DNA of 64,000 bases, taken from Eledone cirrhosa. Taxonomy: Eukaryota. The position numbers and the translations under genes were made by a program. The notes under the pieces were generated by a model. That model did no database searches, was not told where the DNA came from, and worked only from the letters and a program-made list of their open reading frames with translations. Of this stretch, positions 46,233 to 51,101 are shown piece after piece. How positions within the stretch are numbered: position 1 is the first letter of the stretch; every line of letters starts with the position of its first letter. The stretch spans positions 351,044,001-351,108,000 of the forward strand of contig OZ024741.1 of assembly GCA_964016885.1 (NCBI GenBank), given 5' to 3'.

Positions 46233-46291
46233 TATACCGCTGCGTTTTTACAGTTTTACTAGTTACACATACACACACATATATATATACA

Positions 46292-46370
46292 CACGGTGTC
46301 CCCTCCAAAATATATACACACTTCGATTACTTTGCTGTTGAAGTGTGTATACATTTTTTGGGACACTGTG
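46292..46370. mobile_element. Solo ~80-bp Tc1/mariner-type MITE
   Basis: cacggtgtccc..aaaatatatacacactt / aagtgtgtatacattttttgggacactgtg; relative of the array units at 47.7-49.1 kb. Confidence 0.75.
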
Positions 46371-46372
46371 TT

Positions 46373-46406
<34 letters not shown>

Positions 46407-46894
46407 GGGAAGGGAGAAATTTTTGGATGCTATACCTGACATAATAAAAAACCCAAATACACCCCTAACATTTGTCGCAATATCAATCACGAGAGTAAAT
46501 AAATACATAAATAAGAAATGATAAAGGAAAAGAAAATCCCTACATTATGTAATATTCCCAGTCAACCCTAAATTTTCCCTAAATTTCAAAACCGGGAGGG
46601 GAAAGTCCGAGAGTTAAAATCCCAAATGATGGTACCTCAAATACTAGTGTATCCCTTCGCATTACAGTTTAAAGCAATACATATGATCGCTTTGATGACT
46701 CTTAATCGTTTCTAAGGGTCTCATTTTTTTCTCTTCTTTCTCTCATATATCTATATATGTCAAAATCTTTCCCTCTGTCTATCTCTTTCCCTCTCTGTCT
46801 ATCTTTTGCCATAAAAACGATAATGATAATCAATTCAATTAAGAAATATATATATATATATATATGTATATTATTAGTATTATTATTAAAATTA

Positions 46895-47150
46895 AATACC
46901 ATTTATTCTGCGGCAGAGAGCTTCATCTTCCCAGAATCGTAGTACTGGTCATTATTGTATGTGTGTGTTTCTGCGTATATATATATATATGTAGTGTATA
47001 TACGCATTCACATATTTAGAGGTAATATCACGTGACAAATCACATTATTCTTTCAAAAGGAAAAGTTTGGCGCCATTTTTCTCCAGGGAATAACGCGTCA
47101 ACAAACGCAAGAGAAAAGAAGAAGCAAAAGATAAGAAAACGGTAAATAAT
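46895..47150. promoter_or_regulatory. Candidate (bidirectional) Pol II promoter
   Basis: TTCCCAGAATC (ZNF143/Staf-like) at 46928, TCACGTGA at 47028, TTTGGCGCCATTTT (overlapping E2F and YY1 motifs) at 47066, and outward-facing GT donors at 46899 (-) and 47142 (+). Confidence 0.45.
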
Positions 47151-47420
47151 ATCAGTTTCCATTTATTAATATATTGTATATATATATATGTATGTGTGTA
47201 TATATATATATATACAAGTATGTACACGTACATACATATATATATACATACATACATGCACACATATATATATATATATGTACGTATGGATTCACCGAAC
47301 ATTTATTATATATACATACTACTGTACGTCTGTATACATATATGTATGTACGTGTACATACATATATTTAAGTAACAGCCGTACTAAGAGTGGGAAATGA
47401 AATTTCGTTTCATTTTTTCC

Positions 47421-47493
<73 letters not shown>

Positions 47494-47498
<5 letters not shown>

Positions 47499-47590
47499 AG
47501 AATCTAAATTATGTTAATTTTAAATCTAACTACCCCACTAACATTAAAAATGCTATAGTTAGTAATATTGGAAAAAGAATATCAAACCTA
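47494..47590 (+). mobile_element. Naiad-like PLE ORF, left piece (RT thumb)
   Basis: NENLNYVNFKSNYPTNIKNAIVSNIGKRISNL; continues in frame at 49160. Confidence 0.85.
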
Positions 47591-47866
47591 TCTATATCCT
47601 ACTAAAACTCTGATCTTAATTGCTTGCTTGCACACACTTTCTCTCTCTATATCATATTTGTGTATATACAGGTTGTCCCCCCAAAAAATGTATACCCACT
47701 TTGATTGCCTATACATGCATTATTTGTTAGGATGGTGTATACATTTTTCGGGACACCGGTATTATTATATATATATATATAGTGTCCCCGAAAAATGTAT
47801 ACACACTTTGATTACCTGTACAGGCAATATATATATTAGAATGGTGTATACATTTTTAGGGACCCC

Positions 47867-47905
<39 letters not shown>

Positions 47906-49159
47906 TGTCCCCGAAAAATGTATACACACTTTGATTACCTGTACAGGCAATATATATATATTAGAATGGTGTATACATTTTTAAGGACCCCGGTATATAT
48001 ATATATGGTGTCCCCGAAAAATGTATACACACTTTGATTACCTGTACAGGCAATATATATATTAGAATGATGTATACATTTTTAGGGACCCCGGTATATA
48101 TATATATATATATATGGTGTCCCCGAAAAATGTATACACACTTTGATTACCTGCACAGGCAATATATATATATTAGAATGGTGCATACATTTTTAGGGAC
48201 TCCGGTATCTATATACTACTAAAACTCTGATCTTGATTGCTTGCTTGCACACACTTTCTCTATATATATATGTTCATATTTGTGTATATACAGGTTGTCC
48301 CCCCAAAAATGTATACCCACTTTGATTGCCTATACATGCATTATTTGTTAGGATGGTGTATACATTTTTAGGGACCCCGGTATTATATATATATATAGTG
48401 TCCCCGAAAAATGTATACACACTTTGATTACCTGTACAGGCAATATATATATTAGAATGGTGTATACATTTTTAGGGACCCCGGTATATATATGTATATA
48501 TGGTGTCCCCGAAAAATGTATACACACTTTGATTACCTGTACAGGCAATATATATTAGAATGGTGTATCCATTGTTAGGGACCCCGGTATATATATATAC
48601 GGTGTCCCCGAAAAATGTATACACACTTTGATTACCTGTACAGGCAATATATATATTAGAATGGTGTATACATTTTTAGAGACCCAGGTATATATATATA
48701 TATATGGTGTACCCGAAAAATGTATACACACTTTGATTACCTGTACAGGCAATATATATATTAGAATGGTGTATACATTTTTAGGGACACCGGTATATAT
48801 ATATATATGGTGTCCCCTAAAAATGTATACAGACTTTGATTACCTGTACAGGCAATATATATATTAGAATGGTGTATACATTTTTAGGTACACCGGTATA
48901 TATATATATATATATGGTGTCCCGGAAAAATGTATACACACTTTGATTACCTGTACAGGCAATATATATATTAGAATGGTGTATACATTTTTAGGGACCC
49001 CGGTATATATATATGGTGTCCCCGAAAAATGTATACACACTTTGATTACCTGTACAGGCAATATATATATATATATATATGGTGTCGAGGAAAAATGTAT
49101 ACACACTTTGATTACCTGTACTAGACTACTCGTGACCCGTTGGGTCACGAGTAGTCTAG
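47591..49159 (+). mobile_element. Non-autonomous Helitron carrying a tandem MITE array (two 5' ends, one 3' end)
   Basis: A|TCTATAT.CTACTAAAA at 47591 and 48208; 19-bp perfect hairpin at 49120-49160 ending CTAG|T; no TSD. Confidence 0.88.
47669..49120. repeat. Tandem array of about 12 full and 2 half ~90-bp hairpin (Tc1-type MITE) units separated by variable (TA)n
   Basis: GGTGTCCCCGAAAAATGTATACAC-[loop]-GTGTATACATTTTTAGGGACCCC repeated. Confidence 0.95.
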
Positions 49160-50590
49160 TCATTTAATAAAAATATCTTTGATGCTAACGCCAATTACTT
49201 TAATAATGCGCTTTCTAAAGCCGGTTATCCTGATAAAATCAAATACAGTAAAGAAACCAATCCTAGAAGATCTTACAATAAAATAATTAATTATGATCAT
49301 TCCAATAACATAAATAAAAGACCTAGATACAAAAATATAATCTGGTATAATGCTCCTTTCTCTATTTCTATTAATAATAATATTCCTAAATTATTCTTTA
49401 GTGCCTTAAATATATGCTTCCCTCCCTCACATATCTATAGTAAAATATTTAACAAACATACAATAACATTTTCCTATTCCACCTCCTCCAACATCTCCAA
49501 CATTATCTCTAAACACAACAATAAAATATTAAATACTAAATCACTTCCTTCCAACACTGAATGTCATAATAATAGCAGTAGTACTCCCGACGTCATTGTT
49601 AACTCTAGGCTAGTTTCTGCAAACTCAAATACCACGTCAAACGTAACTTCGTTCTTAATACCAATCTAAATCAGGAAACTATTATTCCTATCGTAAATAA
49701 CTTCTCCAATCCAATTCCTCCTATAGATAACACTAGGTCACTTGTTAATAACTCTGTTAATTTCTCTAATCGCAATTGTAATTGCCCTGTTAAAAATAAA
49801 TGTCCTCTCAACAACCATTGTCTTGAAAAAACTTAGTTGTTGAAGAATATATGAAACTTAGATGTTGAAGAATATATGAAAGAACTGCTTGATTCTTCTG
49901 ACTCCCAAGTACAGATATTTCTAAATCATTTACTTAAAGAATGGAAGACACCTGTGATAAAACAACTTGTCAACTCTAAACAGTCGACCAAACAAACCAG
50001 TGCCAGTAATTCTAATAATCGACAAAAAACTCAGACACTACCATCTAAACTTTCCAACAATACAGAACCTTCCAAAAATATACCCATCTTTCTACCTTAT
50101 TTCAATATTATTTATTATACATTATATAATACTAGTTACTCATTCTATATCATTCCTATTTATCACTTTCCTTTCTTCCCCTTTTCTTTTAATTTCTAAC
50201 CTCTAATCTGTACTTTTTCTTCCTAACTACTTCTCAATTCTTATTATTACTCACCACCACATATCCACTCTTCCATCTTTCTTCATATCATTGGCCATAA
50301 AAATTATTATTACCTTTTAAATACTTTATAGCATTACCTTTAAAAATCCTTCGTAAACAAACATTTTTTGACGTTAGATTATTCCTCCTCAATTCATTAT
50401 ATTTTTCTCCCCTTCATGCTCGTCTGACTTTTACATATCACACATCACAATACATAAAAACAAACTTAAACCCTAACTAATCTCCTTTATTACATTATAT
50501 TATTACCATTCGAAAATACTTCATAAACATATATATTTTGATGTTAGAGTCTTCTCTTCCTTAAACACTATTTTCTTCTTTGCTTTCTGC
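49160..50590 (+). mobile_element. Naiad-like PLE, right piece (thumb/linker, start of zinc knuckle, 3' UTR)
   Basis: SFNKNIFD..YFNNALSKAGY..KNIIWYNAPFS..FPPSHIYSKIFNK..SYS..KHNNKIL; NCNCPVKNKCPLNNHCL. Confidence 0.88.
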
Positions 50591-50594
50591 GCTC

Positions 50595-51065
50595 ATTTGT
50601 AAATGAACAATAATAATTCTTAGGGGTATAAAAACCCTAGAAAATGCTATTTTCATCATTTTTAAAAATAGCAAACCAATTGATGCTTTGAATAGGGCCA
50701 AATAGAAGTCGTTAGACATGCCCAACCAACCGTGATGCCTAAACCAATCAGCTTCAGTAATCCAGTGAAACTACACACCGATTGGTCGAAATACAGTTTG
50801 CAAAATTTAGCATTCTGTAGTCGCTTTTCACTGTATATAAGGCACAAAATTTACCCATCTCATTACAGTTGAAAATTGTAAACTTGACTTTCACCACAGA
50901 ATTTGAACCTGAAGATTGCGAAAGCATGAAATTACTTGTTCAATTAACACTTAACACTTAATATTCGACCATACTATTTCATTCTAATACCATTATAATT
51001 TTAAAGGATTGTAAATGAAACGAGTAAATCAGACAAAGTTGGAATTCCTTTTATTAATATAATCT
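50595..51065 (+). mobile_element. PLE pLTR-like terminal segment (endonuclease end, CCAAT/TATA, hammerhead)
   Basis: KTLENAIFIIFKNSKPIDALNR* resembles a GIY-YIG C-terminus; CCAAT near 50677 and 50743, ATTGG near 50780, TATATAA near 50834. Confidence 0.6.
50903..50943 (+). ncRNA. Ultra-minimal type I hammerhead ribozyme motif
   Basis: TTGAAC-CTGAAGA-TTGC(GAAA)GCAT-GAAA-TTAC-TT-GTTCAA; 6-bp stem I, GNRA-capped stem II, weak stem III. Confidence 0.72.
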
Positions 51066-51089
51066 TCTATACACAATCATACACACCCG

Positions 51090-51101
51090 TGTATATTTAT
51101 T

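What the first reader, a model, noticed from the sequence alone, without database searches (positions are those of the whole stretch)
47494..49260. Nested system: Helitron shuttling a tandem array of Tc1-type MITE hairpins, inserted cleanly into a PLE gene
Seen: removing 47591-49159 restores the PLE ORF in frame (..KRISNL|SFNKNIFD..) at an A|T site with no TSD. The insert starts TC and ends with a perfect 19-bp hairpin running through CTAG. Inside are two blocks, each a 5' end, one variant-A hairpin and 4-6 variant-B hairpins separated by variable (TA)n. A solo relative of the unit lies at 46292. Known: A|T insertion and TC..CTAG ends define Helitrons, which can disperse satellites. Inference: a cut-and-paste MITE was captured, amplified and moved by rolling circle. 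The array could also titrate transposase or yield hairpin small RNAs.
Basis: partly seen in the sequence, partly recalled or inferred. Interest (0 to 1): 0.75.

Follow-up and report, generated by a model that had tools for sequence, protein, structure and literature searches.

The report
Helitron spreading a MITE-derived satellite
A small rolling-circle jumping element, found in at least 35 places in this genome, carries a chain of crippled copies of a different miniature transposon that ranges from 2 to over 210 units, so it likely turns that transposon into scattered satellite DNA; its tail is a perfect mirror repeat whose 3-base loop points either way, likely flipped more than once.

Summary
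The 1,569-bp insert (47591-49159) sits at A|T with no target duplication, and 29 of 29 sister copies of the Penelope-like host lack it. It belongs to a non-autonomous canonical Helitron family: 35 fetched copies share the palindromic end, all end before a T, and 27 complete ones hold 2-20 units. One array exceeds 210 units. Both parents are in the genome: the 5' head is the start of a RepHel-coding Helitron, and the unit derives from a ~100-bp TA-flanked MITE of a DD41D Tc1/mariner element.

Corrections: the host is a 5'-truncated, broken retroelement piece, not a gene. The MITE parent is DD41D, not Tc1 proper. B units have lost their terminal bases, so they are likely cargo that cannot excise. 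Titration and small-RNA roles have no support.

New point: the terminal 3-nt loop occurs in both orientations (26 vs 9 of 35), against 1 of 100 in the parent's short hairpin. Flipped copies do not cluster on a weak tree, though one origin is not rejected (p-AU 0.098). Helitron-borne arrays and MITE-derived satellites are each known; this combination, with both parents traceable, is a new variant.

The parts
47494..47590 (+). 5'-truncated Penelope-like retroelement fragment, left of the insertion (32 codons of the region after the reverse transcriptase)
   Evidence: Contiguous with 49160 onward in 29 of 29 paralogs. A paralog's 589-aa frame has RT-like and GIY-YIG-like motifs (motif names recalled; no Pfam, NCBIfam or PDB hit).
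47591..47666 (+). Helitron 5' head 1: TC start, about 28 bp shared with the start of a RepHel-coding Helitron, a (GCTT)n tract, then a captured linker
   Evidence: 141 exact matches of a 19-mer.
47667..48207 (+). Array block 1: one A unit and four B units separated by (TA)n
48208..48288 (+). Helitron 5' head 2 (internal, A|TC)
   Evidence: 89% identical to head 1 over 81 columns; aligned.
48289..49119 (+). Array block 2: one A unit, six full B units, one truncated B and the terminal half unit
   Evidence: the half-unit junction has 36 exact matches genome-wide.
49120..49160 (+). Terminal palindrome: arms 49121-49138 and 49142-49159, loop 49139-49141 in the flipped (GTT) state; ends CTAG before host T 49160
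49160..49837 (+). Penelope-like fragment right of the insertion; frame ends at 49669; similarity to paralogs resumes at 50074
   Evidence: 92% protein identity to a paralog over 161 aa.
46290..46372 (+). Decayed solo copy of the same MITE family, internally deleted, not part of the Helitron

Best explanation
The insert is one copy of a gene-less canonical Helitron family that sits at A|T sites and carries a head-to-tail chain of damaged copies of a DD41D mariner-type MITE, and it is likely moved by the RepHel enzyme of the coding Helitron that shares its 5' end. Shown: clean A|T insertion, family-wide ends, varying unit number, both parent elements in the genome, loss of terminal bases in B units, two kinds of 3' end, and two loop orientations. 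Inferred steps: (1) a Helitron start read through into flanking DNA holding one MITE; (2) that MITE was duplicated through the (TA)n flanks, losing its left terminal bases, and the chain grows and shrinks by slippage or unequal exchange; (3) the head-plus-array module picked up terminators from sister Helitrons at least twice; (4) one terminator was extended into a full palindrome by a fold-back template switch that re-entered the unit at a TA; (5) the long palindrome lets the loop invert by template switching, which the short parental stem rarely allows.
For: 35 of 35 palindrome copies are followed by T; 20 of 27 heads read A|TC and 7 lie unresolved in (TA)n. Host site empty in 29 of 29 paralogs. 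Loci with the same head run into Helitron_like_N (E 7e-43) and PIF1 (E 2e-66) frames and end in the same short stem-loop plus CTAG. Solo MITEs: 438 exact terminal-repeat matches, 26 of 30 sampled are short two-ended elements, 21 of 26 have TA on both sides. Parent transposase has 41 residues between the second and third D in both copies where the motif was readable. 219 of 224 scored B starts (307 units) lack the terminal CAG, and 4 of 307 were tallied with the solo-type CTG end. All units point the same way. Mean divergence: solos 4.9% (n=15), B 3.0% (n=268), A 1.4% (n=31). Among 44 head-plus-array loci: 27 palindrome, 6 with a nested Helitron body and short-stem end, 6 truncated, 5 running off the locus; at least 3 of those 5 later reached that same nested body. 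L206 shows array joined to the short-stem end of the sister family. Helraiser data show the left end is essential and the right end can be bypassed (PMC4778049, passages).
Against: No intact RepHel frame was found in the six coding loci read; all were broken, so the mobilising enzyme is inferred. The order of capture events is reconstructed, not observed. The 10-bp deletion shared by A and B also occurs in 24 solo-type matches, so it alone does not prove one captured MITE; that rests on the shared right-end changes. The tree is star-like (0 of 23 branches starred) and one origin of the flipped loop is not rejected (p-AU 0.098). Array variants are often incompatible with each other (46 of 135 pairs), so exchange among units may blur lineages.
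Confidence: 0.8

Rival explanations
1. The palindromic end works like a parvovirus terminal hairpin: the displaced single strand folds back, primes its own second strand, and resolution yields flip and flop ends during transposition.
For: The stem is perfect through the last base. Loop 26 vs 9 of 35, against 1 of 100 flipped in the short-stem parent (Fisher p 2e-5, copies not independent). Flipped copies need 7 changes for 7 copies on the tree. Two small variant-sharing groups hold both states (L009, L127, L017; L087, L110, L095). L105 continues 8 nt as a fold-back beyond CTAG.
Against: The ratio is 26:9, not near 1:1. A flip also exists in a short-stem copy. The internal CTAG is followed by A, not T. 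None of the 15 copies with arm changes shows the change mirrored in both arms. The same array also spread with an ordinary end.
Confidence: 0.15
2. The loop flipped once, and two source copies differing only in the loop produced all copies.
For: The AU test does not reject one clade (p 0.098); no branch is strongly supported.
Against: No variant is shared by all flipped copies; 9 of 17 nearby variant sites conflict with the loop state, close to the random-label mean of 10.3.
Confidence: 0.25
3. The array was built by repeated cut-and-paste insertion of MITEs into the TA spacers and still releases units.
For: The family targets TA, and spacers are (TA)n; a solo dimer exists at L207.
Against: All units share orientation, lost termini and a B-specific interior seen in 0 of 15 deletion-type solos; solos are more diverged than array units.
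Confidence: 0.05
4. The arrays are kept because they bind transposase or yield hairpin small RNAs that silence the mariner family.
For: The inner part of each terminal repeat is preserved and units fold (z about -3.1); one related 420-aa transposase frame exists.
Against: The cognate transposase copies are broken and 79-91% identical over the best pieces; variable length and decay fit neutral cargo.
Confidence: 0.07

Closest known systems
Canonical non-autonomous Helitrons (HLE1), e.g. Helraiser/HelibatN (PMC4778049 and PMC11417382, passages)
   Same: 5' TC, 3' hairpin and CTAG, A|T insertion without duplication, ends shared with a RepHel-coding element, new 3' ends acquired by bypass.
   Different: The hairpin is extended into an 18-bp-arm palindrome that includes the CTAG, its loop occurs both ways, and the body is almost wholly a MITE chain.
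Cg_HINE and Pearl of oysters, DINE-TR1 of Drosophila (PMC7492417 abstract and passages; PMC9659126 table; PMC12628747 passages)
   Same: Rolling-circle element with a 4-nt microsatellite on the left and a central tandem array of varying length that grades into satellite DNA.
   Different: Those are Helentron-type (subterminal inverted repeats; HLE2s insert at T|T). Here the ends are HLE1 type and the monomer is a near-whole MITE with its parent identified.
Xstir/Xmix and miDNA4 of Xenopus (seen only through PMC12628747 and PMC9659126 passages)
   Same: Satellite repeats derived from or tied to a MITE.
   Different: There the array lies inside the MITE and rides on it; here the MITE itself is the repeat and rides a Helitron.
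Helitron arrays with several 5' ends and one 3' end (Xiong et al. 2016, seen only through PMC12628747)
   Same: The two-head, one-tail layout of the window copy and of L212.
   Different: Only 2 of 27 complete copies show it, and the repeated unit here is mainly the internal cargo.
Visitor/DD41D family of Tc1/mariner (name seen in the search listing of 10.1101/2022.10.13.512200)
   Same: D41D spacing, TA target, about 27-bp terminal repeats and a DUF4817 helix-turn-helix in the parent element.
   Different: Array units are non-coding and have lost their termini.

Membership tests
HLE1 (canonical Helitron), non-autonomous | 5' TC terminus | tested here: met
   Window and 20 of 27 heads; 7 unresolved in (TA)n.
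HLE1 (canonical Helitron), non-autonomous | 3' hairpin followed by CTRR | tested here: met
   33 of 35 end CTAG, 2 carry one substitution (L098 read). The parent-type short stem lies within the palindrome.
HLE1 (canonical Helitron), non-autonomous | Insertion between A and T without target duplication | tested here: met
   Empty site in 29 of 29 paralogs; T follows 35 of 35 ends.
HLE1 (canonical Helitron), non-autonomous | Termini shared with a RepHel-coding element | tested here: met
   Same head; near-identical last 25 nt, differing at two positions; Helitron_like_N and PIF1 hits.
HLE1 (canonical Helitron), non-autonomous | Mobilisation by RepHel through circular intermediates | not testable with these tools
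   Needs a transposition assay or circle sequencing.
HLE2 / Helentron-type HINE | T|T target and subterminal inverted repeats at both ends | tested here: not met
   Target is A|T. No end-to-end inverted repeat was noticed in the termini, though no dedicated search was made.
Tc1/mariner MITE (solo family) | Terminal inverted repeats with TA duplication | tested here: met
   26 of 30 sampled loci two-ended; TA on both sides in 21 of 26.
Tc1/mariner MITE (solo family) | Both ends match a transposase-coding parent | tested here: met
   One end matches L163/L231, the other matches L232, L247 and L248.
Tc1/mariner MITE (array B units) | Intact termini | tested here: not met
   219 of 224 scored starts lack CAG; most ends read CGG.
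Tc1 proper (DD34E) | DD34E catalytic spacing in the parent | tested here: not met
   D41D in L231 and L240.
Penelope-like element (host) | Reverse transcriptase followed by GIY-YIG endonuclease | tested here: inconclusive
   Motifs visible in a paralog's frame (names recalled); no profile hit in Pfam, NCBIfam or PDB.
Parvovirus-type rolling-hairpin end | Terminal loop in flip and flop states | tested here: met
   26 vs 9 of 35.
Parvovirus-type rolling-hairpin end | Flip produced by self-priming and a resolving nick in each round | not testable with these tools
   Genomic signs are inconclusive.

The most novel reading that the evidence does not exclude
This Helitron's fully palindromic 3' end self-primes second-strand synthesis and is resolved into flip and flop forms during transposition, a rolling-hairpin step not found described for Helitrons in my searches, while the same element pumps a dead MITE into satellite arrays.
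Probability: 0.15. Interest if true: 0.8.

Novelty: new variant of a known kind. Interest (0 to 1): 0.47.

Why it matters
The origin of the central repeats in Helitron-borne satellites is often not traced. Here both donors, the swapped terminators and a series from 2 to over 210 units are readable in one assembly, giving a traceable route from a cut-and-paste MITE through a rolling-circle carrier to satellite DNA. The two-way loop is a natural marker of strand switching at a Helitron end. Helraiser's terminator depends on its loop rather than its stem (PMC4778049, passages), so the two loop states give a direct test of how termination is read and whether the end can prime the second strand.

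Tried and rejected
The 17-mer across the half-unit/palindrome junction gave 3,780 matches, but 20 of 20 fetched regions were an unrelated retroelement coding sequence; that count is not a copy number. Pfam found nothing useful in the window's host fragments. Pfam, NCBIfam and PDB found nothing in longer paralog frames, and the atlas could not read the sequence. No RNA holder was listed. Laid reads and contigs mix paralogs: joints skipping the insert come from other host copies, and no loop variant was listed. The shared 10-bp deletion was dropped as proof of single capture. Head-targeting, noted earlier for other families of this genome, does not describe this family: about 3-6 of 35 right flanks look like Helitron starts by eye. 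Rows dropped: L021 and L102 as duplicates of the window and L098; L088 (loop region deleted) and L211 (cut in the left arm) from the loop count; 9 of 35 copies from the tree (no head or too few units) and 4 of 35 from the variant test. Literature: 'Helitron + flip-flop + terminal hairpin' gave 0 papers; searches listed no title or abstract start on a whole-MITE Helitron array or Helitron loop inversion. Only listings and passages were seen, subscription papers are not held, and no supplements were read.

Full report
Observation. All 29 other host copies examined are contiguous at this point without extra bases, so there is no target duplication. The host is a 5'-truncated fragment whose frame ends at 49669. 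A paralog's 589-aa frame shows reverse-transcriptase-like and GIY-YIG-like motifs (names recalled), but no profile library recognised it. The two blocks, the unit counts, the hairpin and the solo copy are as described.

The family. The right arm has 64 exact matches in the genome and the half-unit junction has 36. I scored 35 non-duplicate copies with array and palindrome. All are followed by T; 20 of 27 heads read A|TC and 7 lie in (TA)n. The 27 complete copies span 280-2,461 bp and 2-20 units, median 10. One headless array holds more than 210 units over more than 22 kb (36 + 87 + 91 scored in three slightly overlapping stretches). Of 63 sampled matches to the head 19-mer (of 141), 18 carry arrays and 45 do not.

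Helitron parent. Array-free heads continue into a conserved body. The six followed further hold broken RepHel-type frames; two were scanned and hit Helitron_like_N and PIF1. They end in a 6-8-bp stem with loop AAC shortly before CTAG. Sister families carry the exact last 18 nt of the palindrome with only the short stem. The array module also occurs with a second end, a nested Helitron body of about 750 bp. This fits read-through capture, shown for Helraiser (PMC4778049, passages), and the HLE1 definition (PMC11417382, passages).

MITE parent. The terminal repeat pattern has 438 exact matches; 26 of 30 sampled are short two-ended elements, 21 of 26 with TA on both sides. The two ends match the two ends of a 1.2-kb transposase-coding element with D41D spacing, so the parent is DD41D rather than Tc1. 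Array B units lack the first three bases of the left repeat, have a changed right end and their own interior; none of 15 deletion-type solos has that interior. Solos are more diverged than array units. I infer one capture followed by in-place amplification, and cargo that cannot excise. The 10-bp deletion recurs in solos, so it is not proof by itself.

The end. The palindrome equals the sister-family end with its left arm extended to mirror the tail through CTAG. A fold-back template switch that re-entered the unit at a TA explains the junction (inference; L206 shows array joined to the short-stem form). The loop reads AAC or a one-base variant in 26 copies and its reverse complement in 9, including the window. 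In the parent's short stem, 1 of the first 100 listed matches (of 348) is flipped. Flipped copies share no variant and need 7 changes for 7 rows on a tree, no fewer than shuffled labels. The tree is star-like and one clade is not rejected (p-AU 0.098). Repeated template-switch inversion is my best reading; one inherited flip and a rolling-hairpin step remain open. Earlier unreviewed notes report mirrored Helitron ends in other families of this genome; the head-targeting they describe does not fit this family.

Comparison. Rolling-circle elements with central satellite arrays (PMC7492417 abstract and passages; PMC12628747 and PMC9659126 passages), MITE-derived satellites and multi-head Helitron arrays (the two reviews) are known. 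My searches listed no paper on a whole-MITE monomer inside an HLE1 element or on loop inversion at Helitron ends; only listings and passages were seen.

Verdict. Observation confirmed, interpretation partly supported, new variant of a known kind, interest 0.47. The rolling-hairpin reading has probability about 0.15 and would merit about 0.8.

Noticed in passing
L061-L080; G000 genome-wide: The 17 nt spanning the half-unit/palindrome junction match exactly a coding stretch of a different, abundant retroelement (about 3,700 matches). Probably chance.
   Followed up: partly
L212 (G000:C2:31116500-31120500): Two-block copy in which the left arm of the palindrome joins the next head through a 5-nt microhomology, as expected from a head-to-tail dimer that lost its terminator.
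   Followed up: partly
L105:3375-3800: After the final CTAG the sequence folds back 8 nt, resumes the second half of a unit, then continues with inverted units; looks like a template-switch product.
   Followed up: partly
L106, L217, L256 (G000:C3:18134500-18156950): More than 210 units over more than 22 kb ending in the palindrome; the 5' end was not reached. L113 and L197 hold about 95 scored units over 14 kb with the other end type.
   Followed up: partly
L085, L089, L107: Copies with the palindromic end but a different, microsatellite-rich left part; all three are followed by what looks like another Helitron's start.
   Followed up: no
L084: Left arm intact but the right arm replaced by a different CTAG end, suggesting exchange of ends between families at the loop.
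   Followed up: no
run X4 (organism B) on window 49120-49152: 18 contigs join array units directly to the hairpin at a different junction, with loop AAC in array orientation, in a run with very low depth on this host retroelement.
   Followed up: no
L240:1306-2565: A 420-aa open DD41D transposase frame with a 6-aa repeat before the helix-turn-helix; only a diverged left terminal repeat was found.
   Followed up: partly
L194:1726-7236: A RepHel copy with a 1,837-aa run of charged repeats before the Rep domain.
   Followed up: no
window 46500-47214 and 49160-51062: Five paralogs (L032, L039, L047, L049, L059) match the host to about 51030-51100 and also part of 46500-47280, so the host fragment lies in a larger repeated unit.
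   Followed up: no
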